Shown one piece after another: positions 2,203-62,821 of a DNA stretch of 64,000 nucleotides. The translations under genes and the position numbers were made by a program. How positions within the stretch are numbered: the first letter of the stretch is position 1; every line of letters begins with the position of its first letter. The notes under the pieces were generated by a model, which worked only from the letters and a program-made list of their open reading frames with translations, did not search any database and was not told the origin of the DNA. Source of the DNA: a virus; the IMG/VR virus record IMGVR_UViG_3300025913_000001, positions 7,952 to 71,951 of that record, one strand, 5' to 3'.

Positions 2203-2233
2203 CAATTGTAAGAATAATAAATGTATATACAAA
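2203..2233 (-). promoter_or_regulatory. Bacteroidota-type promoter with overlapping TGTATATACA palindrome
   Basis: Minus strand TTTG-19 bp-TACAATTG; palindrome at 2222-2231. Confidence 0.6.
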
Positions 2234-3243: not shown

Positions 3244-3416
3244 TTGTCCATGCTTTTACGGCTGAATAGATACTCCCACCCATCACCGTATGCGTCATAC
3301 ATTCGATCACAAAAGTTTTCGTAACTCTCGAACGGTAGCGAATATTCCACGTAAAGCTTTTCCTTAACTGTCGGCTGCGATTCGTCCTCTAAAATGTCGA
3401 TTTGCTCTTTACTCAT
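3240..3416 (-). CDS. Small acidic hypothetical protein (58 aa)
   Basis: Manual translation MSKEQIDILE...SRKSMDK; ATGA overlaps at both ends. Confidence 0.55.
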   Translation of the reverse strand: MSKEQIDILEDESQPTVKEKLYVEYSLPFESYENFCDRMYDAYGDGWEYLFSRKSMDK

Positions 3417-3775
3417 GGATTTGGTTGTTTAGATGGTTTGATATAGTTGGTTTTAGCGTCTATAAACTTTTTAAATCTTTCCCATGTTTTAGGGCAACCT
3501 GTTATGTAGTTATATAGTCTACCATTTTTATAGTAAACTTCTTCTTTAACCGAAAATCCTAATAATAAATCATTCCATTTTTCAGAAATCGGCTCTCTTG
3601 TTCTTAAAAAGGAAACAACTGTTTTTTGAGTATTAAATCCTCCAACCCTGTCCCTATATTGTTCTTTTTTACCGAACCATCCTTTGGGGTAAACAGGATA
3701 ACCGTAGTTTTTACCTGTATATTCACCGTTGGCATCTAATATGCCATCAAGCATCATGTCTGCTATATCACCCAT
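3413..3775 (-). CDS. Hypothetical phage protein
   Basis: N-terminal MGDIADMMLDG motif common in phage early genes; overlaps neighbours. Confidence 0.65.
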   Translation of the reverse strand: MGDIADMMLDGILDANGEYTGKNYGYPVYPKGWFGKKEQYRDRVGGFNTQKTVVSFLRTREPISEKWNDLLLGFSVKEEVYYKNGRLYNYITGCPKTWERFKKFIDAKTNYIKPSKQPNP

Positions 3776-3977
3776 TGTTCAATGCCTCCTTTAACTCGTT
3801 AAACTTCTTGTCACGTTGCAAATGTATTTCCTCGTCATGCATCCTGTCCAACTCGTTGTAAGCTGCCATAAGATGCTCAAAAACGTTATTGGTGGATTGC
3901 TCCCCCTGCTTAGTCCATTCGTTCATCAGATCGAATGTTTTGCCCCTGAAACGGGATATGATGGTTAATGCGCTCAT
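3768..3977 (-). CDS. Hypothetical protein
   Basis: ORF track; likely start MSALTII. Confidence 0.5.
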   Translation of the reverse strand: MSALTIISRFRGKTFDLMNEWTKQGEQSTNNVFEHLMAAYNELDRMHDEEIHLQRDKKFNELKEALNNG

Positions 3978-3981
3978 GATT

Positions 3982-4803
3982 TTACCATTTATAAATTCCA
4001 CCACGTTGTATAAACATTTCTCTATCGAGGCTTATTTGTTCAATACAGTGGCTAAAATCGTTATCAATTAAACTGTCTGAATAGGTATGTTTACCCGCAC
4101 TGTTTTCAAATAGTCTGCCTTGCGGGTCAATTAGCAAATAACTACCCGTCATTGCTTCGTTACTTTCGGGGACTAAGCAATCATGAAATCCGTGGTGCAT
4201 GACAAACGTTGTAAATTGTTGCTGAGTGACCTTTATTTCATCAAACTGTTTGTCGTTTTGTTCTTCAATTCTTAGAGCCTGAAAAACTTTCCACCTATCA
4301 GGATTGGCGAATGTTATAAAGTCGTTCATATCTTCCCCCCAATTATAGGCATTAACCACAGTATTGATTTTAAGCTTATAGCCGAACTTTTTAATTTGGC
4401 TGACTAATGCCATGTAGTTAATTGCTTTTTTATGCTTACGCCCTATTAAAGCGTTAGTATCGGGGTTTAAACTGTCGATTGAAACGCCTATCCAATTTAG
4501 ATATCCTTTCATCTTTTTTAACCATTCATCAGTAATAAAACTGCCATTGGTTATAATGCTTGTTGTCATACCTAATGAATGAGCATAAATTATGCAAGCA
4601 TCTAAATCTTTGTATAGCATAGGTTCGCCACCCGCAAAAGTTATTTTTTGTACGCCAGATAAAAATAGTTTTCGTATGCAAGTTTTAGCATCGTAAATAT
4701 TTATTGTTTTTACGTGCATATCGTCAAAAGTAGCATAACAGAATTTACACTTCATGTTACACGGCTTCACTATGTGAAACGATACGGTTTCAAAAGTTTT
4801 CAT
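3982..4803 (-). CDS. Viperin-family (RSAD2/pVip-like) radical SAM enzyme
   Basis: CNMKCKFC cluster motif, KITFAGGEP, SIITNGS, VSIDS, KLKINTVV, RWKVFQAL, ESNEAMTGSYLLIDPQGR: the viperin-type motif set. Confidence 0.9.
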   Translation of the reverse strand: MKTFETVSFHIVKPCNMKCKFCYATFDDMHVKTINIYDAKTCIRKLFLSGVQKITFAGGEPMLYKDLDACIIYAHSLGMTTSIITNGSFITDEWLKKMKGYLNWIGVSIDSLNPDTNALIGRKHKKAINYMALVSQIKKFGYKLKINTVVNAYNWGEDMNDFITFANPDRWKVFQALRIEEQNDKQFDEIKVTQQQFTTFVMHHGFHDCLVPESNEAMTGSYLLIDPQGRLFENSAGKHTYSDSLIDNDFSHCIEQISLDREMFIQRGGIYKW

Positions 4804-5176
4804 CTTCTTTATATTGTTTTTTAGCCGTTTCAGTTTCTTTAACTTTCATCCAATTGTATTCATTGGCGACCTCTTTTAAATCAGCCGCTTTAATGCTAAA
4901 ATCTGTTTTCTCAAACTTCAAACCTTTCAGGTAGCTGTTCACAAATGCCCCAACACTTGTATCGAACTTTTTAAGGACTTCTAAGCTACTCAAAGCAACA
5001 TTTGAGTACATGTACCCAACGCCGGATTTAAATTGAATATACAGCCTTAAACTGACTTCATCGTAGGCGAAGTAATCAACGTTGCTGCTATCCCTTTTTT
5101 CAATAATAAAACTGGTTAACTCTTTCGGTGCGGACAGCAATACGCCGTCAAGCACTATTAGGAATGTTTGGTTCAT
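4790..5176 (-). CDS. KTSC-domain protein
   Basis: DSSNVDYFAYDEVSLRLYIQFKSGVGYMYSNV...SVGAFVNSYLK. Confidence 0.75.
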   Translation of the reverse strand: MNQTFLIVLDGVLLSAPKELTSFIIEKRDSSNVDYFAYDEVSLRLYIQFKSGVGYMYSNVALSSLEVLKKFDTSVGAFVNSYLKGLKFEKTDFSIKAADLKEVANEYNWMKVKETETAKKQYKEDENF

Positions 5177-5397
5177 GGGTTCTCTTTGTTAAGTTGCTCA
5201 ATAAGGTTATTGGCATAGGCGGTTGCTTCTTCAACAACTGAATAAAGCCCATTGCTTCTATCTTTCGGATTGGCTAACAATCCTTGCATAGCCATCGCTG
5301 CAAAGTATTCACGTTTGGTTAATCCTTGCCTACAAGTAACAATATCCCCTTCTAAAATTGCTATAGATGGGTTTAATACATCGTTTGCGTTTGTCAT
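5173..5397 (-). CDS. Conserved phage hypothetical protein
   Basis: GLTKREYFAAMAMQGLLAN motif widespread in phage early regions. Confidence 0.8.
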   Translation of the reverse strand: MTNANDVLNPSIAILEGDIVTCRQGLTKREYFAAMAMQGLLANPKDRSNGLYSVVEEATAYANNLIEQLNKENP

Positions 5398-5436: not shown

Positions 5437-5466
5437 CGAAGATACAACTAAAAATGTATATACAAA
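5437..5466 (-). promoter_or_regulatory. Bacteroidota-type promoter with TGTATATACA palindrome, upstream of the KTSC-viperin genes
   Basis: Minus strand TTTG-18 bp-TATCTTCG; palindrome at 5455-5464. Confidence 0.55.
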
Positions 5467-9423: not shown

Positions 9424-9455
9424 CAATTGTAGAGACTTTATTTTGTATATACAAA
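9424..9455 (-). promoter_or_regulatory. Leftward promoter with extended palindrome TTTGTATATACAAA
   Basis: Minus strand TTTG-20 bp-TACAATTG; palindrome at 9442-9455. Confidence 0.6.
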
Positions 9456-23013: not shown

Positions 23014-23714
23014 GTATAGACCTATATAAACAACATTGGATTGACAAACCCACAAGGCATGAAGCAGTAAATACTATGTTTGCTGCTAATGTCAATGAAA
23101 ACCAATTGCTAAAGTCTCATCGTGATTTTGTAGAACAAAATGCCTTCGGGTTTGGAGAACGTAGTTTTCACTGGCTTTGGAAAATTATTATAGATGAAAT
23201 GCCGAAATCATTTTCATTTTTAGAAATAGGAGTTTTTAGGGGGCAAATTCTTTCATTAGTTGAATTATTAGCCAAAGAAAGTGGAAAAGAAGCTAAAAGA
23301 TATGGTGTATCTCCGTTAGACAGTTCTGATGGGCATTGGGATAGTGACTACGCTAAAGATATAGAAATTATTCACGATCGGTTTGGTTTGGCTAAAGACT
23401 ATACCATTTATCATGGATTAAGCATCAACTCAGAAATAATAAAGCAAGCAAAATCTACAGCGCCATACGATATTGTTTACCTTGACGGGGGGCATACCTA
23501 CGAAGTCGTTACAAGCGATTTAAAGCACTATCCTGATATGGTTAAGGTTGGTGGCTTATTTATAGTCGACGATAGCTGTAATAACATGAAAATGCCGTGG
23601 GGTTTTTTTCAAGGCATTGAGGACGTAACGAAAGCAACATTAGAGTGGGAAAACAGTCAGTTTGAATTTCAGTTTAATGTTGTTCATAATCGAGTTTATA
23701 AAAGAGTAGCATGA
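23010..23714 (+). CDS. Class I SAM methyltransferase (Methyltransf_24-like)
   Basis: FLEIGVFRG, YDIVYLDGGHTYE, VKVGGLFIVDD. Confidence 0.85.
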   Translation: MSIDLYKQHWIDKPTRHEAVNTMFAANVNENQLLKSHRDFVEQNAFGFGERSFHWLWKIIIDEMPKSFSFLEIGVFRGQILSLVELLAKESGKEAKRYGVSPLDSSDGHWDSDYAKDIEIIHDRFGLAKDYTIYHGLSINSEIIKQAKSTAPYDIVYLDGGHTYEVVTSDLKHYPDMVKVGGLFIVDDSCNNMKMPWGFFQGIEDVTKATLEWENSQFEFQFNVVHNRVYKRVA

Positions 23715-24679
23715 AGAAAATCATATACATGACCCAATGGGATGACGACGGAACTTATTTCTATCGATTGGCACCCCTTACATTTATTAAACACGAAAAT
23801 ATTACAATTGAAAGGATACCCTATCATGGCAATATTACGTGGTCTACCCTATTGGGATATGATACCTTAATTTTAGAACGCCCATCAGGTCAGCATGACT
23901 TAAACCTTATTAAATTGGCTAAACAATGCGGACTAAAGATTATTACCGATTGGGATGATGATGTTTTACATATTGATGAATATAACCCAATGTACGCGCA
24001 TTATGAAACTGCAAAATCAATTGTTATTGAGTGTTTGCTGTTATCCGATGATGTTTGGGTATCTACTGTTGGATTAAAGAAGTCATTTGGCTTTTATAAT
24101 GGCAATATACGGGTTATACCGAACGCTCATAACGATTACTTGTTTCCTGTAGCCAATAAAAAGCAATTCAATATAGAGAGTAAAAAAGCTATTTGGAGAG
24201 GCGGTCAAAGCCATGAAGCAGATGTGTATGGGGTTGCAGATAGCTTAGTTAAAACTATCAATGACAACACCGATTGGATGTTTCAGTTTGTTGGTGCAAG
24301 ATTTATTTATATGGAGCAGAGATGTGGAAACAACTATCAACCTGTTTCCATGATGCCGTTAATGCAGTATTTCGGGTATTTGTATAAGGAGAACCCCAAT
24401 ATCGTATTTCACCCTTTATCTAATACTAAATTTAACGAGAGTAAAAGCAATATCAGTTTTATTGAGGCTACGTATAGCGGGGGTGTGTTTTTTGGAAACA
24501 CAACCTTACAAGAATTTTCTGGAGTAGGTATAATGCCGTTTGACTATATATCAGAATATGTGGAAAAAGATAGGATATTGGCATTGCAAAAAGCAAATGA
24601 AATAGGGTGGAAACACATAAAAGATAATTTGCTATTATCAAACATTAATCAAAAACGCATAGAAAGGCTATTGGCATGA
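23711..24679 (+). CDS. GT-B fold glycosyltransferase-like protein
   Basis: FYRLAP, DWDDD, VWVST, VIPNA, IWRGGQSHEAD, PLSNTKFNESKSNISFIE. Confidence 0.75.
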   Translation: MKKIIYMTQWDDDGTYFYRLAPLTFIKHENITIERIPYHGNITWSTLLGYDTLILERPSGQHDLNLIKLAKQCGLKIITDWDDDVLHIDEYNPMYAHYETAKSIVIECLLLSDDVWVSTVGLKKSFGFYNGNIRVIPNAHNDYLFPVANKKQFNIESKKAIWRGGQSHEADVYGVADSLVKTINDNTDWMFQFVGARFIYMEQRCGNNYQPVSMMPLMQYFGYLYKENPNIVFHPLSNTKFNESKSNISFIEATYSGGVFFGNTTLQEFSGVGIMPFDYISEYVEKDRILALQKANEIGWKHIKDNLLLSNINQKRIERLLA

Positions 24680-45580: not shown

Positions 45581-48500
45581 ATGGCAGACGAAAATCAAAT
45601 ACAAGAACCGCCAAAGTTATCTGTAGATGATTTTGCAGCAAAGATAAAGGCGAAATATCCCGACTATAAAAACGTGGATAATAGCGAACTTGTCAAAAAG
45701 ATTGTCGCTAAATATCCGGAGTATGGAAGTCATGTTGATTTAAACCCTCCAAAAGCGGCTACACCTATTTTTCAGCAAGCATCTAATAATTTTCTTAATC
45801 CATCAATTATAAAGCCACAGACAGGATATTTAACACCTATAATAGACTCGAATGCCAGACAGCAAGAGGCTGAACGGCAATATATGGTGGAAGGACAACA
45901 GGCAAATGATAAATTATCTCGCCAAATCAAACAAGGGCAAGAATTTCAAAAGTTAGTTGAGAAAGCCGACCCTGAAACAGTCAAGAATTGGGACAAGGTA
46001 AATCAGTTAATGGCAAATCATGTACCCGACCAATTACGTGAATATACCCCTGAAGAACAAAAGCATTATGAGTTTATGCAAACACCTGTTGGTAAAACAT
46101 TGGGGGCTGTTGCTTATTTAGGTTCTAAAGCTACTAAAGGGTCATTACAAATAATTAAAGGTGCTGCTCACTTAGCTAATATGGGCTTGAATGCTACTAA
46201 CCCGTATGCTCAAATGAGTAATGAAGAGGCTATTAATAAGATAGGCGATAAAGCCGATAAATTGGCTAATTATGGATTAACACAAGGTGATATAGGCAGA
46301 ATGGAAGAATCAAAGCCATTATCTGCTTTGGGAATGGCTGCTGAGTTTGCACCTGCTGTAGCTACCGGAGAAGCCGCTAACGCTCCTAAAGCATTGATGT
46401 ACTTACAGGGCGTTGGTCAAGGTAAAGACGCTGCTGAGAACATTGAAAAGAATGGAGGTAATTTAAACCCTGTTGCCAAAGAGGCATTGATACAGGGTAG
46501 CGGTTTGGTTAATTTGTTGTTGACTGACGTGTTTAAAGGCTCAAAGGTATCTTCTGCTTTACAAGACAAAGTAGTTACGGGTATTGCCGCTGATGCGATT
46601 AAAGAGAGTGCAGGTAAAGATTTGTCGGCACAGTCGTTTAAAGACCTATTACAAAACAAGGCACAAACATTTGCTCAAAAGTTAGAACGTGCGCCATTAG
46701 AGGCTTTGGGTCACTATAACGAAACAGCCAAAACATTCCTTAAACTAAATGCAGGTAATTTTGCCGTACATAAATCCGTGGACGCTTTAAATGAAAAGCC
46801 TGTATTTAATGAAACGTTAGGTAATCTGGCTGAAAATTCAGTTAATTCCATAACTAAAGACGCGCCGATATTTGCTGCGTTGCCGGCCGCTAAAGAATTA
46901 ACGAAGTTACTGCCTAATACGGCCTATCATAATGATGTGGTTGATGCGATTGTAAAAGACCCATCACAAAAGCATACTGACGACATTAAGGCTCAGATTA
47001 TGAACCATGCGTCTGAACAAGGATGGAACGATAATGAATTGCACAGTACTTTAGACCATGTGAATAAAATAGCCGAAGCGGCAAAGGCAATTCCTAAAGA
47101 TATCCCAAACGAAAATAAGCGCACTGACGCTATCGGATTGGTTATTGACCGTAATACACTACAAGACAAACTTAATGGGATTCAAGAGGCTAAAAAGAGC
47201 CTTGACCCTGCTATTCAGGAGATACATACTGCACAAGAACAATATCTAACCGATAAAATTGAGCAAGCCAATGATAAGTTACGAGATATTGTAAGTGGTA
47301 CTAAAACTACGTATTCAAAAGAGCGTGATGATAAAGGACAGGAAACAGGCAAATTCTTAAAGAGTACTGATGGCAAGCAAGAAGAGATAACCCCTGAAAG
47401 ATATAACTTGGAGCGTACCGAACGGGATGCTAAGGTAAAAGACAATGTGCAGGAAAATCCTGTTGCAGAACCAACAACTATAAAAGAATCAGACAATGGC
47501 AAAATCGATGAAATGGGAGGGAAGCCCAATGGACAAGAAGCAGGACAAAGCGGGGATGGCAAAAATGAAATCGGCATCCCACAAGAAAGCACCAAAGAAA
47601 ATGGGCAAGAAAAAGTAGTTAAATCGGGTGCGGGTGAGACTGTACCCGATAAATTGAAAGATGTACAAGTTGGAAACAGAGTTCCTATATCAAGAGGCGA
47701 TGAAAGCGGAATAGTTGAACGAATGGGAGTCGATGGTGATAAAACAGTGTTATCGGTAAAAGGAGATGATGGTAAATTAAATGAAGTTATTATACCTAAA
47801 CACGCCGTTGAACATTACGAACAATCTTTAAATGAATTAAAAAATGCCATTCAAAAGCAAAGCACAGGAGAAATGGTCCTTCGCCAACAAGAAACCGTGG
47901 GCGAAGGAGTGGGCGGACAAGACGAACCAAAAGTCGCTCCCGCAGAAATTGAAAAAGAGCAACCAAAAGAAAAAGAAATAAAAGCCGGAGACACGCTCAG
48001 AAAACTAGCTGACAGAATAGACGCAGGTAAAATAAATAAGTTAGGTGGTTTTAAGGCTTCTACAGGCTTTGATGCTTTGTGGGATACCTCTTTACAGGTC
48101 GTGTCTACATCGTTGCGTGGCGGAGCTAAATTAGCCGATGCAATTGAAGAAGGATTGAAACATATCCGACAAAGCGATTGGTATAAAAATCTAACTGATA
48201 AAAAAGACTTTGAGGCTAAATATGCTGAACACCTGAATAACGAGTTGTCAGATACTAAAGAAGATGTTGCTACCGAACAACCTAAAAAGTTTGTTACCAG
48301 CGCTAAAAATGCCGACACCGATAAACTAAGGGAGAAATTAGGTTTGTCGCCATTAATGAAAGCCGCTGCAAGGGCTAATCCCGAAGTATGGGACGAGGTA
48401 TTGGCACGTTTAGATACCAACCCACAAGCGGCAGATGACCTGATTAAACGCTTAGAGGTCGAAATGCGACCCGTAACAGACGTAGAGCAAGGTTTGTTGG

Positions 48501-50944
48501 TACATAAGCAAATAGAACTTGAAACTACCGTTCAGGAGGCCTCACAGCGTATTATAGACAACAAAAAAAAAGGTATTGACGATAAGTTTGACGATATCAA
48601 TCTCAAAAACGAAAGGGATAAATTATCTGACCTAATTAAACTACAAAATAAGGTAGGTAGGGAATGGGGATTATCTGGTAAGTTCCGTCAACAACTGTAT
48701 AAAGATGATTTTTCATTAGCGAGCTTAGAGCGCAAAACAATGGCGGTTTTAGGTGGCCGTGACTTAACGCCTAAAGAGTTGGATGAAATTCAAAAGGTAC
48801 ACGATGAGTTTAATAAAAAGCTGAAAGACCACGAAGATATTATTGCGGGACTACAAAAGCGCAATGCTGACTTAGAGGCAGAAAAGGCTTTAAAGAAACT
48901 AAAAAAAGACGCAGACTTTGAACAAAGAAAAGCGAAGCGTCAAGGTAAGATAATTGACTACGATAAGCAGATAAAAGATACCATTACAGATATTCGTGCT
49001 AAACTAAAAAAGGCACGTTCGGAAGCCAACGTTGTACCAATACCATACGCCAAAGAATTAATTGCTATTGCCCCTGAGTTGGGTGAATTGGCAAAAGCTT
49101 ATATCTCAAAAGGCATAACTAATCTGGAAGATATTGTCGACAAAATTCATCACGATCTGAAAGATGATTTTGATAATTTAGATAAACGTGCGGTACGGGA
49201 CGCTTTAAGTGGATACGGCAAAGAGTCCAAAAAGCAAACTCGTGACGAGATACAAACTAAACTTGACGAGATTAAGCGTGAAGCTAAGTTAATGTCGCAA
49301 TTGGAGGACTTAAAAAATGGTTTGGCTAAAGCAAAGACTGAAAGAGCAAAAGATAATATTAACGAACGTATTGAGGACTTAAAAAAACAGATACGAGAAT
49401 TAACACCCCAAGATGAGGCTAAGAACAAGTCCTACATCACCCGTATGCAGAATATGCAGAAGGAATTGGAGGCTAAGTTAAAAAGTGGTGACTTTGATAA
49501 AACTGTTCGTGTGCCTATCGAACTGAGTGAAGAAGCTCGTGCCTCCCGTGCGGCATATTTGCGTGTTAAAAAAGAATTTGAAACTGCTTTGGAGAAAAAA
49601 AGGTTAGCCAACAGAAGCAAGATAGAAAAGGCAAGCGATTGGTTTGTGAAGTGGAGGCGTAATGTGTTATTCTTAAACCCAAGCACCTTTGTTAAGTTGG
49701 GTACATACGCCTCTTTAAAGATGCTTTCTAAGCCATTACACGAACTTATAGGTTCGGGGTTACGAAAGTTACCTTATCTGTCAAAGATAGCCGAGAAAGC
49801 CCCAAGAGAGGGTCACGCCTTTAATGTACAGGCAGAGGCTAAGGCTTTTGCACAGATGTGGTCAAAGTCTACGTGGTCTGATATTAAAAAGAACCTGACT
49901 AATAAAGAAGGAGACTTACAGGTCATTAATGATGGATCAGATGAAACTACACGTGTTCCAGATGCTAAATTATTGGATATAGGCGCATCATTACACTCTG
50001 CTATTAAGCAAATACCCAAACACGCAGAATTTGAGCGAAGTTTGATATTACGGACTAAATATGCTTATGAGCATGGTTTAGACGTAAGTAATCAATTGGT
50101 ACAATTACAAAATGTTGCCGGGGCATTGAAAGACAGTTTGCCTGGTTCTCAATTGAACGAGTTAGAAAGCAAAGCCTATCAGGATTCATTACGGGATATT
50201 TTAATGCAGGATAATGTTGTGTCTAAGGCATGGAGCGGTGCTATCAATCAGTTAAGCCAATTAGCAGAAAGCGGTAAGTTGAATAAGACTACAATAGAAT
50301 CTACGGGTATTAAAAATGCCGCTAAGTCTTTACGGGCAGCGATGCAGATATTTATACCAATTACCAAAGTTCCGGTAAACTTCGTGATTGATCGTGCTGA
50401 ATATACACCAATTGTTGGTGCAGTACGTGCTATGTTGATTATGCGAAGGGGACTAAGTGAAATGAAGCCCGAAGAAGCAGATTATGTAATGCGTGTATTT
50501 AAGAAGCAAGGTATCGGTGCGGGTATGTTGGCATTTGGATATTTAAACCCGAATATGTTTGGTGGTTTTCAAGTGAGCAATAGTAAAAGAACAGATGACC
50601 AATTAAAGGCGAACGATATTGAGGTTTTTGGCTATAAAATACCCCACTTTATGACGCACACAGCCTTTTTATCCATTTGCCAATTAGGGGCGACGTTAAG
50701 GCATATAGCTGATGATGAGGTAGAGGGTAAGTTTACAGTAGATAAATATATCAAAGCTACTGACAGAGGCGGTAGTGATGCTGCTATAGCCAATGTACGG
50801 GATATTGCTAAAACAGTTCCATTTATGGATACCCCAACAAGATTAATGGATGCGGTTAAGTCTAAAGAATCTTGGAATAAGTTTATACAAGATTTTACTA
50901 TGGGATTGGTATTGCCACCAGATATAAAGACAGCAGTAAAATAG
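45581..50944 (+). CDS. Large internal virion/DNA-ejection protein
   Basis: 1787 aa coiled coil; FAAKIKAKYPDY N-terminal motif; third gene of the ejection trio. Confidence 0.7.
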   Translation: MADENQIQEPPKLSVDDFAAKIKAKYPDYKNVDNSELVKKIVAKYPEYGSHVDLNPPKAATPIFQQASNNFLNPSIIKPQTGYLTPIIDSNARQQEAERQYMVEGQQANDKLSRQIKQGQEFQKLVEKADPETVKNWDKVNQLMANHVPDQLREYTPEEQKHYEFMQTPVGKTLGAVAYLGSKATKGSLQIIKGAAHLANMGLNATNPYAQMSNEEAINKIGDKADKLANYGLTQGDIGRMEESKPLSALGMAAEFAPAVATGEAANAPKALMYLQGVGQGKDAAENIEKNGGNLNPVAKEALIQGSGLVNLLLTDVFKGSKVSSALQDKVVTGIAADAIKESAGKDLSAQSFKDLLQNKAQTFAQKLERAPLEALGHYNETAKTFLKLNAGNFAVHKSVDALNEKPVFNETLGNLAENSVNSITKDAPIFAALPAAKELTKLLPNTAYHNDVVDAIVKDPSQKHTDDIKAQIMNHASEQGWNDNELHSTLDHVNKIAEAAKAIPKDIPNENKRTDAIGLVIDRNTLQDKLNGIQEAKKSLDPAIQEIHTAQEQYLTDKIEQANDKLRDIVSGTKTTYSKERDDKGQETGKFLKSTDGKQEEITPERYNLERTERDAKVKDNVQENPVAEPTTIKESDNGKIDEMGGKPNGQEAGQSGDGKNEIGIPQESTKENGQEKVVKSGAGETVPDKLKDVQVGNRVPISRGDESGIVERMGVDGDKTVLSVKGDDGKLNEVIIPKHAVEHYEQSLNELKNAIQKQSTGEMVLRQQETVGEGVGGQDEPKVAPAEIEKEQPKEKEIKAGDTLRKLADRIDAGKINKLGGFKASTGFDALWDTSLQVVSTSLRGGAKLADAIEEGLKHIRQSDWYKNLTDKKDFEAKYAEHLNNELSDTKEDVATEQPKKFVTSAKNADTDKLREKLGLSPLMKAAARANPEVWDEVLARLDTNPQAADDLIKRLEVEMRPVTDVEQGLLVHKQIELETTVQEASQRIIDNKKKGIDDKFDDINLKNERDKLSDLIKLQNKVGREWGLSGKFRQQLYKDDFSLASLERKTMAVLGGRDLTPKELDEIQKVHDEFNKKLKDHEDIIAGLQKRNADLEAEKALKKLKKDADFEQRKAKRQGKIIDYDKQIKDTITDIRAKLKKARSEANVVPIPYAKELIAIAPELGELAKAYISKGITNLEDIVDKIHHDLKDDFDNLDKRAVRDALSGYGKESKKQTRDEIQTKLDEIKREAKLMSQLEDLKNGLAKAKTERAKDNINERIEDLKKQIRELTPQDEAKNKSYITRMQNMQKELEAKLKSGDFDKTVRVPIELSEEARASRAAYLRVKKEFETALEKKRLANRSKIEKASDWFVKWRRNVLFLNPSTFVKLGTYASLKMLSKPLHELIGSGLRKLPYLSKIAEKAPREGHAFNVQAEAKAFAQMWSKSTWSDIKKNLTNKEGDLQVINDGSDETTRVPDAKLLDIGASLHSAIKQIPKHAEFERSLILRTKYAYEHGLDVSNQLVQLQNVAGALKDSLPGSQLNELESKAYQDSLRDILMQDNVVSKAWSGAINQLSQLAESGKLNKTTIESTGIKNAAKSLRAAMQIFIPITKVPVNFVIDRAEYTPIVGAVRAMLIMRRGLSEMKPEEADYVMRVFKKQGIGAGMLAFGYLNPNMFGGFQVSNSKRTDDQLKANDIEVFGYKIPHFMTHTAFLSICQLGATLRHIADDEVEGKFTVDKYIKATDRGGSDAAIANVRDIAKTVPFMDTPTRLMDAVKSKESWNKFIQDFTMGLVLPPDIKTAVK

Positions 50945-51429: not shown

Positions 51430-51663
51430 ATGGAAACTTGCAAGCAATGCTCAAAAGAATTTGAGGCATGGGAAGCTGAATTTTATTGCGACAATTGTGA
51501 TAACGACGGATTAGAAGAACGTTGGTACGATTGGTGCATTGGCGAACCTGATATGATTACGTGTACTGAATGTAATGGTGATAAGACAATTAAATCTATG
51601 GAACGTGGTTTTTGTTCCGAAGATTGCAGAGAGGATTACTTTTATCCCAATAACGGTATATGA
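51430..51663 (+). CDS. Cys-rich zinc-finger protein
   Basis: CKQC, CDNC, CTEC, CSEDC. Confidence 0.6.
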   Translation: METCKQCSKEFEAWEAEFYCDNCDNDGLEERWYDWCIGEPDMITCTECNGDKTIKSMERGFCSEDCREDYFYPNNGI

Positions 51664-54173
51664 AGGAATCTCTCAAAAAACTCGTCAAGCAAAAGTACGC
51701 TGAGATAGTAGAGAAGCGTTTAAGCAAATCAGAGGCTTTAGAGGCGCAACAGGCTATTATCTCTCAAATTGATGATACAGTATACCAAGCGGAAGAAGAA
51801 GTAGCTGACGAGCCTGTAATAACGGTATTACCCCGTAACATCAGGTTAGTTAAACAACAGCAAGCAGAGTGCATAGAATGTATCATTGGCGACATTGACA
51901 ATATCCGTGAAACGTTGCCTTATTTGTTGGAGCATCAGGTGGAAGATGTGCAGAAAGCAGAGGAACGGTTGTATGTTCAAGATGAAGCGGGGATACTGTT
52001 TACTAACCAGACTGGAACAGGTAAGACGATCGTAGGTGCAGGGTTGATTAAACGTTCATTAAAACTCTTTCCTAATGAGCCTATACTTATTGTAACACCT
52101 ACCGATAAAAAGTGTAAAGATTGGATATTGGAGTGTTCATACTTGGGTATACGAGTTTATCAATTGCAGGATACAAGGGATGCTGGTAGATTAGTAAGCA
52201 CCACAACCTATGCCAATTTTAGAGAAAACATTCCATTACAATGCCGAAAGTTTCAGTACATTATTTACGATGAGTGCCATAAGATAATGCAGAATGGTTT
52301 GGGCAAAGAAACAAGCGCCTTAGAAGCGCATAGGCGTACCGCTAATCCATCCAATAGCACAAAGGTAGTATTCCTATCAGCAACACCCTTCGCCTACGTA
52401 CAGAACCTTGAATATGCCGATGGCTATTTATTTAAGATGGGCAATCGTGCTAAGTTCTTAATGGATAATTTTGGCTATACTTTATTGGAAGATGGCAAGT
52501 TAATGCAACCCGCTATTGGTGTTGATGTAGGGATATTGGAGCGAGAGTTTGCCGATAGGCTTATTAAGTCAGGGGCTATGAGTACCCGAAAGATTAAGAT
52601 ACCCTTTGACTATTCGAGAGAATTTGTGTTGATGGGCGATACTTTAGGTTTACAAATTGATGAAGGCTATATGCGTATTGGTGATGTGAAGCAATTTCCG
52701 TTCCTATCACAAGCGATTTCAGGTAAGTTTGACTATCGTTATACATCACAGTTATTAGAGTGCATCAAGGCACGACAGGCAGTACCACGTATCAAAGAGC
52801 ATTTGGCATTAGGACGCAAGGTAGTCGTCTTTCATGCCTATAACCACTCCCTACCGTCACACCCTTTTGAAATGAGGGCTGAGAACTTTAAAAACTATCT
52901 CGATGTAAATAAAATTATGCGGGAAGTTTCGCTATTCCATCAACTTTATCCCGAATACGGTAATTTGGATGTGAGGGACTTAAAGAACCCGATAGCAACT
53001 ATGAAAGAAGCTTTCGGCAATAACGTAGTTTTCTTTAATGGAGAAGTTGGTAAGGCTAAACGTAGTAGTGACTTGGACTACTTTAATGCCGATAGTGGTG
53101 TTGATGTGTTTTGCGTACAGGTAGATGCGGGTAAAGAGGGAATAAGCCTCCACGACAAGACTTCTGCTAAACAGAGGGTAACGATCAACCTCATGCTACC
53201 GACAGCGCCTACGACCGCTATACAAGCCGAGGGGCGTATTTATAGAGAGGGGAATAAAACAGATGCGATTATTGAATATCCCGTACTCCATACCGCTTTT
53301 GAGAAGTTTGTGTTTGCGGACAGGATTAGCAAAAGGGTAAGAACGGCTGAGAACTTAGCTTTGGGTAGCCAAGCAAGGAATTTGGAGATCACCTTTAAAG
53401 AGGGGTATTTAAACCCGACAAGTGATAAGCCTCATAAGGGACAAGGTAAGGGTGGTAAGAAAGCGGATATGCTGTTTGACCATCCCGACGAGTTTGAAAA
53501 GGCTAAGACGTTTTACTACAAGCGTGTGGCTAAAAAGGATAATAAGGCTTTAGTGCCTGAACCTTTGGGGTATAAGATTGTTCAATGGCTATCGGCCAGA
53601 CCATGTGATTGCTTATTAGATGCAAATGCAGGAATTGCATCAGTAAGTAGATATTTTAAAGCAAACACCGATAATACTATAATAGAAACCGATATAAAAT
53701 TAAGAAGCCAAGCAAGCATTTATGTCGAAGCGGTTGAAAGGTTGATGTGTGAAGGATTTGAGGAATTACATATTACCAATAAATATCAAGGGATTGTCTT
53801 TTTAAATAGAGAAAATATTGATTTTATGCTTACCAAAGCCATTAAGCATTTAAAACAAACCGGAAGATTAATATTTATAATACCGTTTAAAGACCTGTCG
53901 GATTACTTTTATAAAAACATAAACAGCGTTCTTCGCGCCACAATTATAATCCCATCCTGCGTATTTGGTAGTGAATTTATATTATTTGTAATAGACAAAG
54001 TTTTGGTTAAAGAAATAATTCCATTATTGCCACCGACTGAATATGTTGATTTATCAAGTATTTCAACAATTGATAAGTTCTTTGAAGCAATTAAGGATAT
54101 AACTATTATTGAGAGACTAGTAGAGCCAGATAAAGTCGTTAAAGTAGAAAAGCATTATACTTGGCAATATTAG
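51660..54173 (+). CDS. SF2 helicase (strawberry-notch/DarB-like) with degenerate C-terminal N6-methylase domain
   Basis: QTGTGKT, DECH, LSATPF, AGKEGISLHD, QAEGRIYR; then PEPLGYKIVQW...LLDANAG with no NPPF/Y. Confidence 0.8.
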   Translation: MKESLKKLVKQKYAEIVEKRLSKSEALEAQQAIISQIDDTVYQAEEEVADEPVITVLPRNIRLVKQQQAECIECIIGDIDNIRETLPYLLEHQVEDVQKAEERLYVQDEAGILFTNQTGTGKTIVGAGLIKRSLKLFPNEPILIVTPTDKKCKDWILECSYLGIRVYQLQDTRDAGRLVSTTTYANFRENIPLQCRKFQYIIYDECHKIMQNGLGKETSALEAHRRTANPSNSTKVVFLSATPFAYVQNLEYADGYLFKMGNRAKFLMDNFGYTLLEDGKLMQPAIGVDVGILEREFADRLIKSGAMSTRKIKIPFDYSREFVLMGDTLGLQIDEGYMRIGDVKQFPFLSQAISGKFDYRYTSQLLECIKARQAVPRIKEHLALGRKVVVFHAYNHSLPSHPFEMRAENFKNYLDVNKIMREVSLFHQLYPEYGNLDVRDLKNPIATMKEAFGNNVVFFNGEVGKAKRSSDLDYFNADSGVDVFCVQVDAGKEGISLHDKTSAKQRVTINLMLPTAPTTAIQAEGRIYREGNKTDAIIEYPVLHTAFEKFVFADRISKRVRTAENLALGSQARNLEITFKEGYLNPTSDKPHKGQGKGGKKADMLFDHPDEFEKAKTFYYKRVAKKDNKALVPEPLGYKIVQWLSARPCDCLLDANAGIASVSRYFKANTDNTIIETDIKLRSQASIYVEAVERLMCEGFEELHITNKYQGIVFLNRENIDFMLTKAIKHLKQTGRLIFIIPFKDLSDYFYKNINSVLRATIIIPSCVFGSEFILFVIDKVLVKEIIPLLPPTEYVDLSSISTIDKFFEAIKDITIIERLVEPDKVVKVEKHYTWQY

Positions 54174-62235: not shown

Positions 62236-62763
62236 TCATTTGTTTTCTCCTTTCGCAGGGGTGGTAAGTAGTTTTGGGTGTTCGTAAATGTTGCCTATGA
62301 CTTCGATATTATTTGACTTACCGTTATCCCAATTATACCGTTGGTTTTGAGCGAATGAAATGAATTGTTTATATTTAGTATCGGTATCAAAATAACCGAA
62401 TGCGCCATTAATGTAAATTACAGGGCGTTTTACTATTAATTGAAACAGATTAACAATATCTCCTTCATAAATATCAATACCGTTACGGTCTTTTAAGCCA
62501 GTGAATTGCATGATAACCAAATCAGTTAATCGCAATAAACTTGGAGTATTATCATTGTGAAGTTTAGACTGTTCGCCAAGCATAATATCTACACCGCTAA
62601 ACAATGTTACTTCGCCAACAATATGAAAACCTGTACATAGCATAACTTTATATTTGTCATCCCATGCTCTAAACTTTATTTCTCTCATCTCAATTTTCGG
62701 TTGGCTTTTTCTGGCATATCTAACATTGTTAGGGTCGTCATTGTCGTGATTGTTTGCGCTCAT
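62236..62763 (-). CDS. YopX family protein
   Basis: REIKFRAWD...MQFTGLKDRNGIDIYEGDIV...EVIGNIYEHPKLL. Confidence 0.9.
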   Translation of the reverse strand: MSANNHDNDDPNNVRYARKSQPKIEMREIKFRAWDDKYKVMLCTGFHIVGEVTLFSGVDIMLGEQSKLHNDNTPSLLRLTDLVIMQFTGLKDRNGIDIYEGDIVNLFQLIVKRPVIYINGAFGYFDTDTKYKQFISFAQNQRYNWDNGKSNNIEVIGNIYEHPKLLTTPAKGENK

Positions 62764-62821
62764 TCTCTTTCCTTTTTTTAAAAGCAGGCTCACTTAGGAC
62801 GCCTGCTATTTTGTTACTCGG

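What the first reader, a model, noticed from the sequence alone, without database searches (positions are those of the whole stretch)
3982..5176. Phage-encoded viperin: an antiviral enzyme carried by a virus
Seen: the ORF has the full viperin motif set (CxxxCxxC, KITFAGGEP, KINTVV, RWKVFQ, NEAMTGSY), overlaps a KTSC gene by 14 bp and sits in a phage early operon under a promoter at 5437-5466. Established: prokaryotic viperins make ddhNTP chain terminators that inhibit phage-encoded RNA polymerases such as T7 RNAP and are normally bacterial defence genes. Inference: this phage shows no RNAP gene in the window and has host-type promoters on its late genes, so it could be insensitive and use ddhNTPs against co-infecting phages that bring their own RNAP. 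The first motif reads SFH where viperins I recall have N-[YF]-H, so the substrate may differ.
Basis: partly seen in the sequence, partly recalled or inferred. Interest (0 to 1): 0.9.

Follow-up and report, generated by a model that had tools for sequence, protein, structure and literature searches.

The report
Viperin gene carried by a phage
A complete, apparently virulent phage of Bacteroidota-type bacteria carries an intact copy of viperin, the enzyme cells use to make antiviral chain-terminator nucleotides, and the copy belongs to a conserved branch found here only in phage DNA, so some viruses seem to use this "antiviral" enzyme themselves.

Summary
Window 3982-4803 (-) encodes an intact 273-aa prokaryotic viperin: NCBIfam NF038283 scores 294 bits against a cut-off of 180, PADLOC pVip 293 bits, and the model superposes on mouse viperin at TM 0.89. 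It overlaps a KTSC-domain gene by 14 bp.

The record is a complete 71,951-bp phage genome. I found no integrase, no T7-type RNA polymerase and no crAss-type RNA polymerase.

The gene belongs to a clade of 16 sequences, all in phage contexts (bootstrap 100). It is 54-67% identical to the other clade members, against 38-49% for Bacteroidota chromosomal viperins. The clade shares Ser-Phe-His in place of Asn-x-His and is under purifying selection (dN/dS 0.06-0.16). It sits in otherwise unrelated phages.

KTSC linkage is not conserved: 0 of 9 other records have the domain. One clade phage carries a crAss-type RNA polymerase, so "no own polymerase" is not universal.

What the enzyme does for the phage is inferred. 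Excluding competing phages is the likeliest role. Counter-defence, host takeover and nucleotide biosynthesis remain open.

This scan has already found phage viperins of this branch on other DNA (e1-5996479, e1-5959766, e1-3411521, e1-6091564). In print I found only a passing mention.

The parts
3982..4803 (-). Viperin gene (273 aa, P0001), a predicted radical-SAM ddhNTP synthase of the prokaryotic viperin family and a member of a phage-borne clade with the S-F-H motif.
   Evidence: family, fold; clade; purifying selection.
4790..5176 (-). KTSC-domain gene (128 aa, P0002) directly upstream, overlapping the viperin start by 14 bp. The pairing is not conserved in other viperin phages.
   Evidence: PF13619, 32.6 bits; 0 of 9 other records.
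5173..5397 (-). 74-aa ORF (P0004), the first gene after the putative promoter. It overlaps the KTSC gene by 4 bp. Function unknown.
   Evidence: weak phrog_2201 hit.
5437..5466 (-). Putative Bacteroidota-type promoter (TTTG, 18-nt spacer, TATCTTCG) overlapping the palindrome TGTATATACA at 5455-5464.
   Evidence: sequence; the palindrome occurs 3 times, 0.17 expected; the exact consensus is not enriched. Activity not shown.
3768..4004 (-). 78-aa ORF (P0003) overlapping the 3' end of the viperin gene by 23 bp. Probably co-transcribed. Function unknown.
   Evidence: only a sub-threshold DUF6809 hit.
3413..3775 (-). 120-aa ORF, next in the same tightly packed leftward gene string. No family match.

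Best explanation
Shown: window 3982-4803 (-) encodes an intact, selectively maintained prokaryotic-type viperin. The [4Fe-4S]/SAM motifs, the triphosphate-binding motifs and the base-pocket Asn are all present. It lies on a complete phage genome of about 72 kb with no integrase and no recognisable RNA polymerase of its own. It belongs to a monophyletic branch that here occurs only in phage DNA and has spread as a single gene among otherwise unrelated phages.

Inferred, step 1: the enzyme converts CTP, UTP or GTP into 3'-deoxy-3',4'-didehydro-NTPs, as characterised viperins do.

Inferred, step 2: it is expressed from the leftward arm of small genes during lytic infection, under a host-type promoter.

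Inferred, step 3, the least certain: the ddhNTPs spare the phage because it is transcribed by the host's multisubunit RNA polymerase. They poison co-infecting or superinfecting phages, or other mobile elements, that depend on ddhNTP-sensitive polymerases. On this reading the phage uses a captured defence enzyme for competition between viruses.

My odds: real viperin on a real phage about 0.95; makes ddhNTPs about 0.8; main role is excluding competitors about 0.45.
For: Family: NF038283 294.1 bits against cut-off 180; MoaA model only 77.5 bits against cut-off 284. PADLOC pVip 292.9 bits. PDB viperins E 4e-48 to 1e-43, MoaA 2.5e-10.

Fold: AlphaFold model pLDDT 83.6. Foldseek top hit is mouse viperin 6q2p at TMq 0.89; the best non-viperin radical-SAM enzyme reaches 0.70.

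Residues: alignment to mouse viperin keeps the Cys triad, GGEP, KIN, RWK, SY and RGG. It puts Asn234 at the Cys314 position, the 'promiscuous pocket' residue of the Shomar et al. preprint (passages read).

Phage context: the record has 127-bp identical ends and CheckV completeness 100. It encodes terminase, portal, primase-helicase and Sak4-like proteins. Its nearest cultured relatives are Flavobacteriia podophages at 26-29% aa identity. No tyrosine or serine recombinase.

Clade: in a careful IQ-TREE of 50 rows, the 16 phage-context rows form one side of a branch at 100/100. The same clade appears in a 97-row quick tree. The two 'genome' rows lie beside a terminase (L031) or a portal and tail fibre (L035).

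Other points. Best chromosomal relatives are 38-49% identical. dN/dS is 0.06-0.16 in the four unsaturated pairs. Flanking genes are unrelated between carriers, and the window's terminase is found in only 3 of 10 other records. T7-type RNAP is in 0 of 10 viperin-carrying records with the T7 control positive. Intergenic -7 boxes number 13 against 5.2 expected, all co-oriented with the arm.
Against: No biochemical or expression data exist. No RNA run holds the stretch, so timing and activity are inferred.

The Asn of the N-x-H motif is Ser in the whole clade, and its effect on chemistry is unknown.

One clade member (L017 in G003) lies on a contig whose giant ORF carries GSDFDIDK, matching the catalytic motif of phi14:2 gp66 RNAP. 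So carrier phages are not always free of a polymerase of their own. Whether that polymerase type is ddhNTP-sensitive is unknown.

The window's own 1787-aa and 972-aa proteins have no family match, so a very divergent polymerase cannot be strictly excluded.

The promoter deviates from consensus, and the exact two-box pattern is not enriched.

That host multisubunit RNAP tolerates ddhNTPs is recalled from the viperin literature and was not checked here. Nothing in the data tells exclusion of competitors apart from the rival roles.
Confidence: 0.5

Rival explanations
1. Counter-defence. The ddhNTPs made early in infection lack a 3'-OH and act as dead-end substrates or inhibitors of host immune enzymes that join or cyclise ribonucleotides through the 3'-OH. 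Candidates are CBASS CD-NTases, type III CRISPR Cas10 and pyrimidine cyclases. The alarm signal would be blunted.
For: The gene sits among small early-type genes of phages that look virulent: no integrase above cut-off in 11 of 11 records and no resolvase in 11 of 11. Anti-defence genes usually sit in such regions (general knowledge). The predicted promiscuous Asn pocket would yield several ddhNTPs. The clade is phage-specific and has fixed substitutions, as expected after a change of role.
Against: This is pure inference. I found no report of ddhNTPs inhibiting these enzymes, though I ran no literature search aimed at this. No defence-signalling-related partner gene is conserved beside the phage viperins.
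Confidence: 0.13
2. Host takeover. The enzyme drains or remodels the host's NTP pools, or dampens host RNA synthesis or RNA-primed replication, to the benefit of a phage that brings its own primase-polymerase type replication protein.
For: The location is in a leftward arm of small genes. The phage encodes a primase/polymerase-helicase (phrog_19930; annotated as bifunctional primase/polymerase in Cellulophaga phages).
Against: The phage appears to need host RNAP itself. Viperin expression is reported to be tolerated by E. coli (recalled; the preprint's passages describe expression for plaque assays).
Confidence: 0.1
3. Biosynthetic role. The ddh-nucleotide is a precursor for a modified nucleotide, nucleoside or sugar-nucleotide that the phage builds into its DNA, RNA or virion glycans.
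For: A preprint on phage DNA glycosyltransferases notes 'annotated viperins (pVip)' in viral gene neighbourhoods with GT/5mYOX pathways (10.1101/2023.12.21.572611, one passage read). This phage has a glycosyltransferase at 23711-24679 (phrog_7162). The N-to-S change near the active site is clade-wide.
Against: The GT gene lies about 19 kb away on the other strand. No tailoring enzyme is conserved next to the phage viperins. Every substrate-binding motif of ordinary viperins is kept.
Confidence: 0.08
4. Not a phage gene in any working sense: a bacterial defence gene on a mis-assembled or mis-binned contig, or a recent passenger with no role for the phage.
For: The record is a metagenome assembly. 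The 127-bp terminal repeat may just be an assembler overlap. Two viral loci hold only viperin fragments (L026 130 aa, L028 126 aa), so the gene can decay.
Against: The gene is embedded by overlaps in a string of phage genes on a closed 72-kb contig. Sixteen of 16 clade members are in phage context. There is strong purifying selection among phage copies. The clade stem is long (0.85) and separates it from chromosomal viperins.
Confidence: 0.03

Closest known systems
Prokaryotic viperins (pVips; NCBIfam NF038283, PADLOC pVip; Bernheim et al. 2021, cited from recollection, paper not held)
   Same: Same family by curated HMMs. Same length class, a stand-alone single gene, with the Cys triad, GGE, the NTP-binding motifs and the Asn base-pocket residue. 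Nested among Bacteroidota pVips in the tree.
   Different: It is encoded by phages that look virulent, not in a bacterial defence island. It forms a separate clade (100/100) with fixed changes N8S, C64Y, M82S, M224L and A253C. None of the 16 clade members has the long N-terminal extension seen in 11 of 80 chromosomal relatives (446-490 aa).
Animal viperin RSAD2 (mouse structures 5VSL, 6Q2P)
   Same: Same fold (TMq 0.89, 34% identity) and the same catalytic and triphosphate motifs.
   Different: It has no N-terminal amphipathic extension. The CTP-selective pair Cys314/Lys319 is Asn234/His239 here. It scores below the TIGR04278 cut-off (184.9 against 450).
MoaA (GTP 3',8-cyclase), the nearest non-viperin radical-SAM family
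   Same: It shares the radical-SAM core and an NTP substrate. Weak hits: 77.5 bits, PDB 2.5e-10.
   Different: It is far below the MoaA cut-off (284). It has no second C-terminal Fe-S cluster region. TMq is only 0.55-0.64.
Defence genes carried by phages, prophages and satellites against rival phages (e.g. P2/P4 hotspots; Rousset et al. 2022, PMC9122126, abstract seen in the listing)
   Same: A mobile, single-gene anti-phage function carried by a virus and varying between related viruses.
   Different: Those cases are mostly temperate elements protecting a lysogen. Here no integrase or resolvase was found in 11 of 11 carrier records, so the gene would act during lytic infection. Viperin is not named among phage-borne systems in the texts I read.

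Membership tests
Prokaryotic viperin (pVip, NF038283) | Score above the curated family HMM cut-off | tested here: met
   NF038283 294.1 bits against cut-off 180, covering profile positions 3-280 of 281. PADLOC pVip 292.9 bits.
Prokaryotic viperin (pVip, NF038283) | Radical-SAM CxxxCxxC triad and the GGE SAM-binding motif | tested here: met
   C15, C19 and C22 and G58-G59-E60 are present. They are invariant in 20 of 20 aligned close relatives.
Prokaryotic viperin (pVip, NF038283) | Viperin-type NTP-binding motifs (KIN, RWK, SY, RGG; residue roles recalled from the mouse structure papers) | tested here: met
   All align to the mouse viperin motifs in the phmmer alignment and are invariant in alignment A1.
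Prokaryotic viperin (pVip, NF038283) | N-[aromatic]-H motif ahead of the Cys triad (recalled as typical; not a curated criterion) | tested here: inconclusive
   His10 is kept. The Asn is Ser8 in 16 of 16 clade members; the position is Asn in 65 of the 78 other relatives compared, Ser in 1 and a gap in 12. The effect on catalysis is unknown.
Prokaryotic viperin (pVip, NF038283) | Viperin fold: partial beta-alpha barrel closed by a C-terminal extension | tested here: met
   Model pLDDT 83.6. Viperin chains fill the top ranks, with TMq 0.78-0.90 in the rows printed. The next family reaches 0.70 at most.
Prokaryotic viperin (pVip, NF038283) | Makes 3'-deoxy-3',4'-didehydro-NTPs | not testable with these tools
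   Needs expression and LC-MS.
Prokaryotic viperin (pVip, NF038283) | Protects a cell against phage; located in a bacterial defence island | tested here: not met
   The context is a phage genome, not a defence island. Protective activity is not testable here. This concerns the biological role, not membership of the enzyme family.
Animal-type viperin (TIGR04278) | Score above the curated cut-off | tested here: not met
   184.9 bits against cut-off 450.
MoaA (TIGR02666) | Score above the curated cut-off | tested here: not met
   77.5 bits against cut-off 284.05.
KTSC domain (PF13619), the neighbour gene | Score above the Pfam gathering threshold | tested here: met
   32.6 bits against 25; 33.6 bits in the six-frame search.

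The most novel reading that the evidence does not exclude
The phage-borne viperin branch is an offensive or counter-defence tool, not a borrowed shield. Virulent phages flood the infected cell with 3'-OH-less ddhNTPs to jam host immune enzymes that polymerise or cyclise ribonucleotides (CD-NTases, Cas10, pyrimidine cyclases). The clade-wide active-site-proximal changes (Asn to Ser and others) reflect adaptation of substrate or product to that role.
Probability: 0.12. Interest if true: 0.9.

Novelty: new variant of a known kind. Interest (0 to 1): 0.65.

Why it matters
Viperin is a textbook example of an antiviral enzyme shared by bacteria and animals. Here there is a monophyletic, selectively maintained branch that lives in phage genomes, mostly in phages with no sign of lysogeny. 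That means viruses have taken over this chemistry for their own ends.

The branch is missing from the phage resources I checked. PHROGs has no viperin family. The 50,697 GenBank phage records have no full-length relative above 21% identity. BFVD has no viperin-like structure.

The question is directly testable. Which polymerases or nucleotide-using enzymes does a phage want to poison? How does it stay immune? Do ddh-nucleotides serve in virus-virus warfare or in counter-defence?

Tried and rejected
KTSC as a functional partner of viperin: rejected. PF13619 is absent from 9 of 9 other viperin-carrying viral records searched (G007 not searched). All-against-all BLAST of neighbours found no gene shared by more than 3 of 20 loci outside the distant L024 group. 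I therefore did not spend the complex-prediction job.

The 1787-aa ORF (45581-50944) as a hidden virion RNA polymerase: no support. It has no D-x-D-x-D motif, no Pfam, PHROG or PDB match, and no match to phi14:2 gp66 or gp67. The nearest atlas clusters are unnamed or polyvalent-protein-like. This does not strictly exclude a polymerase.

Bacteroidota promoter consensus: the exact TTTG-N17-21-TAnnTTTG pattern (4 found, 3.56 expected) and the -7 box over the whole window (102 found, 89.8 expected) are not enriched. Only the intergenic subset is.

Expression: no RNA holder listed. Three DNA runs labelled rhizosphere metagenome hold the stretch or part of it, and one may be the source.

Role of the Asn in N-x-H: two literature searches gave nothing usable.

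Literature on phage-borne viperins: searches, and passages read, gave only one passing mention. Supplementary tables of the defence-system surveys were closed and may list viperins on phages. The Bernheim et al. paper is not held.

Not used: metagenome-contig scan, the search of protein representatives, second structure job, VIA-align.

Rows dropped: L026, L028 and L029 (fragments of 120-130 aa) were left out of the trees. The careful tree used 50 of the 97 rows: all 16 clade rows plus 34 others that I picked for spread.

Full report
WHAT IS THERE. The finding's range covers two overlapping minus-strand genes. ORF 3982-4803 gives a 273-aa protein (P0001). It carries C15xxxC19xxC22, KITFAGGEP, KINTVV, RWKVFQ and NEAMTGSY, with S-F-H ahead of the Cys triad. 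ORF 4790-5176 gives a 128-aa KTSC-domain protein (PF13619, 32.6 bits, cut-off 25). Its last 14 bases overlap the viperin start. A gene caller on record started the viperin at Met17 (P0005, 257 aa). That start would remove the first cluster cysteine. The conserved N-terminus in 20 relatives supports Met1.

IS IT A VIPERIN. Yes.
- NCBIfam NF038283 (viperin family antiviral radical SAM protein) scores 294.1 bits against a cut-off of 180. MoaA scores 77.5 against 284. The animal-type model TIGR04278 scores 184.9 against 450.
- PADLOC pVip scores 292.9 bits.
- Against PDB sequences the nine best hits are viperins (4e-48 to 1.5e-43); MoaA follows at 2.5e-10.
- An AlphaFold model built on 20 relatives (pLDDT 83.6, pTM 0.85) matches mouse viperin with CTP (6q2p) at TMq 0.89. 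The best non-viperin radical-SAM enzyme reaches 0.70.
- The alignment to mouse viperin keeps the cluster, SAM and triphosphate motifs. It puts Asn234 and His239 at the positions of Cys314 and Lys319. The Shomar et al. preprint (passages read) reports that an Asn at the Cys314 position marks the pocket of most prokaryotic viperins and goes with promiscuous CTP/UTP/GTP use.

WHAT CARRIES IT. The window is bases 7952-71951 of a 71,951-bp IMG/VR virus record with identical 127-bp ends and CheckV completeness 100. The repeat length suggests a circular assembly; that is my inference.

The genome has two divergent arms. The rightward arm holds a primase/polymerase-helicase, a glycosyltransferase, terminase, portal and tail-like proteins. 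The leftward arm holds a Sak4-like protein, a DUF7666 protein and many small ORFs, among them the viperin.

The nearest cultured phages are podophages of Flavobacteriia: Cellulophaga phi38:1 and phi40:1, Flavobacterium elemo phages and Maribacter Panino, at 26-29% protein identity. No tyrosine integrase and no resolvase was found.

No T7-type RNAP (PF00940) occurs anywhere in the genome, and the same search finds T7's own gene at 360 bits. The crAss-type RNAP gp66 of Cellulophaga phage phi14:2 finds nothing either. The two large unassigned proteins (1787 and 972 aa) have no family match.

The -7 box TAnnTTTG (consensus recalled) occurs 13 times in the 4.7% of the genome that is intergenic, against 5.2 expected. 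It is always co-oriented with the arm it lies in. This fits transcription by the host polymerase.

That palindrome occurs three times in the window against 0.17 expected.

A PHAGE-BORNE BRANCH.
- In IMG/VR, an alignment-based scan found 19 viral loci. Thirteen hold full-length proteins 50-67% identical to P0001. Three hold full-length proteins of a second, distant group (38-39%). Three hold fragments.
- In one genome per species of 185,579 prokaryotes, 189 relatives were found and the best 80 were kept. Nearly all are Bacteroidota at 38-49% identity. Only two exceed 50% (L031 at 61%, L035 at 62%), and both lie on MAG contigs. L031 sits about 6 kb from a terminase gene. L035 sits beside portal and tail-fibre genes. 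Both are therefore phage DNA.
- In a 97-row quick tree these 16 rows form one clade (SH-aLRT 100). In a careful 50-row tree they form one side of a branch at 100/100, stem length 0.85, with a chromosomal Puia sp. sequence as sister (95/89).
- Against the 78 other relatives compared, the clade has fixed differences: N8S, C64Y, M82S, M224L, A253C and others.
- dN/dS is 0.06-0.16 in the four pairs whose synonymous sites are not saturated.
- The wider protein database holds 1,856 relatives. The 119 listed relatives other than the window's own protein are 60-79% identical.

THE GENE MOVES ALONE. Neighbouring genes are not shared between carriers. The window's terminase is found in G001 (44-56% identity) and weakly in G009 and G010, but not in the other seven records searched. 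Three of those seven are complete genomes with terminal repeats, of 56.7, 115.3 and 99.9 kb. L016 and L035 share only 1,008 bp, at 95% identity: the viperin gene plus about 90 bp on each side. KTSC is absent from 9 of 9 other carrier records.

LIFESTYLE AND POLYMERASES OF CARRIERS. No integrase above cut-off occurs in 11 of 11 records; G001 has one sub-threshold hit of 24.3 bits. No resolvase occurs in 11 of 11. T7-type RNAP is in 0 of 10. However, G003 (116 kb, 64% complete) has a giant open frame with ...GSDFDIDK..., matching gp66's ...GSDFDIDK... at residue 1361. So one viperin carrier is of the crAss type and has a virion RNAP.

HOW IT PROBABLY WORKS. The enzyme most likely makes ddhNTPs. 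That is inferred from full conservation of the catalytic apparatus and from purifying selection.

Why a phage wants them is open. I favour exclusion of competing phages or elements whose polymerases accept ddhNTPs (about 0.45). The carriers lack T7-type polymerases and appear to use host-type promoters. Defence genes on phages are also a known theme.

The G003 case shows this cannot simply be 'no polymerase of its own'. It would instead require two-barrel polymerases, both host and crAss type, to be tolerant.

The rivals are counter-defence by poisoning 3'-OH-dependent immune nucleotide synthases, host takeover, and a biosynthetic role hinted at by the co-occurrence of annotated viperins with glycosyltransferase pathways in viral contigs. 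A passenger or artefact reading is unlikely.

COMPARISON AND NOVELTY. As an enzyme it is a member of the pVip family. As a biological entity it is a variant: a phage-restricted branch with its own signature, carried by phages that look virulent.

It is absent from PHROGs, where the best hit is a generic radical-SAM family at 52 bits. It is absent from 50,697 GenBank phage records, where the only hit covering at least 80% of the query is 21% identical and the closest partial hit is 31% identical. It is absent from BFVD. In the papers I could search I found only a passing mention. Survey supplements were closed.

Earlier agents of this scan reported the same branch on other phage genomes. My results agree. 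They add the test of KTSC linkage, the polymerase census and the 1-kb cassette observation.

Noticed in passing
window 2222-2231, 5455-5464, 9444-9453: The 10-bp palindrome TGTATATACA occurs three times (0.17 expected; 0 of 100 shuffles reach 3). Each copy lies in an intergenic gap of the leftward arm next to a TTTG box. It is a candidate operator shared by three leftward promoters.
   Followed up: partly
window 45581-50944 (+): A 1787-aa, highly charged, coiled-coil-rich protein in the structural block. It has no Pfam, PHROG or PDB match. The nearest atlas clusters are unnamed or polyvalent-protein-like. It is possibly an ejected internal virion protein.
   Followed up: partly
G003:C1:46000-61000 (locus L114): A viperin-carrying 116-kb viral contig has a giant open frame: 5055 aa reported, with 4188 aa of it in the stretch I fetched. 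It contains the crAss-type RNA polymerase catalytic motif GSDFDIDK.
   Followed up: partly
L016:9901-10908 and L035:7898-8905: Two different phage contigs share only a 1,008-bp segment at 95% identity: the viperin gene plus about 90 bp on each side. The AT-rich flanks are inverted copies of each other (TTGTAATTAATTAAAAAAA / TTTTTTTAATTAATTACAA). L014 and L015 have another repeated motif on both sides. This looks like a small mobile cassette.
   Followed up: partly
L024, L025, L029, L030 (IMG/VR): A second, distant group of viral viperins (38-39% identity; L024 scores 254 bits on NF038283). They have conserved flanks, including a 125-aa gene with no family match that overlaps the viperin's end.
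   Followed up: partly
L026 (G009) and L028 (G010): Two viral contigs whose terminases are distant relatives of the window's hold only viperin fragments: a 130-aa C-terminal half and a 126-aa N-terminal part. This suggests decay of the gene in some lineages.
   Followed up: no
G001:C1:57807-60884 (-): In the closest related phage, the terminase match is split into two segments about 950 bp apart inside one 1052-aa open frame. This suggests an insertion, possibly intein-like, in the large terminase.
   Followed up: no
L032, L036, L041, L047, L053, L061, L063, L066, L070, L084, L087: Eleven of 80 chromosomal relatives are long forms (446-490 aa) with an N-terminal extension, probably the kinase-viperin fusion that PADLOC models. 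None of the 16 phage-clade proteins is fused.
   Followed up: no
L002:2632-3108, L002:3121-3672 and window 62236-62793 (all -): Three paralogous genes of the unknown-function family phrog_98 lie in the leftward arm across the assembly junction.
   Followed up: no
window 51660-54173 (+): An 837-aa helicase-like protein (ResIII/DEAD/Helicase_C). Its residues 226-829 match the middle of very long unknown phage families (phrog_10691, profile length 3925, 647 bits).
   Followed up: no
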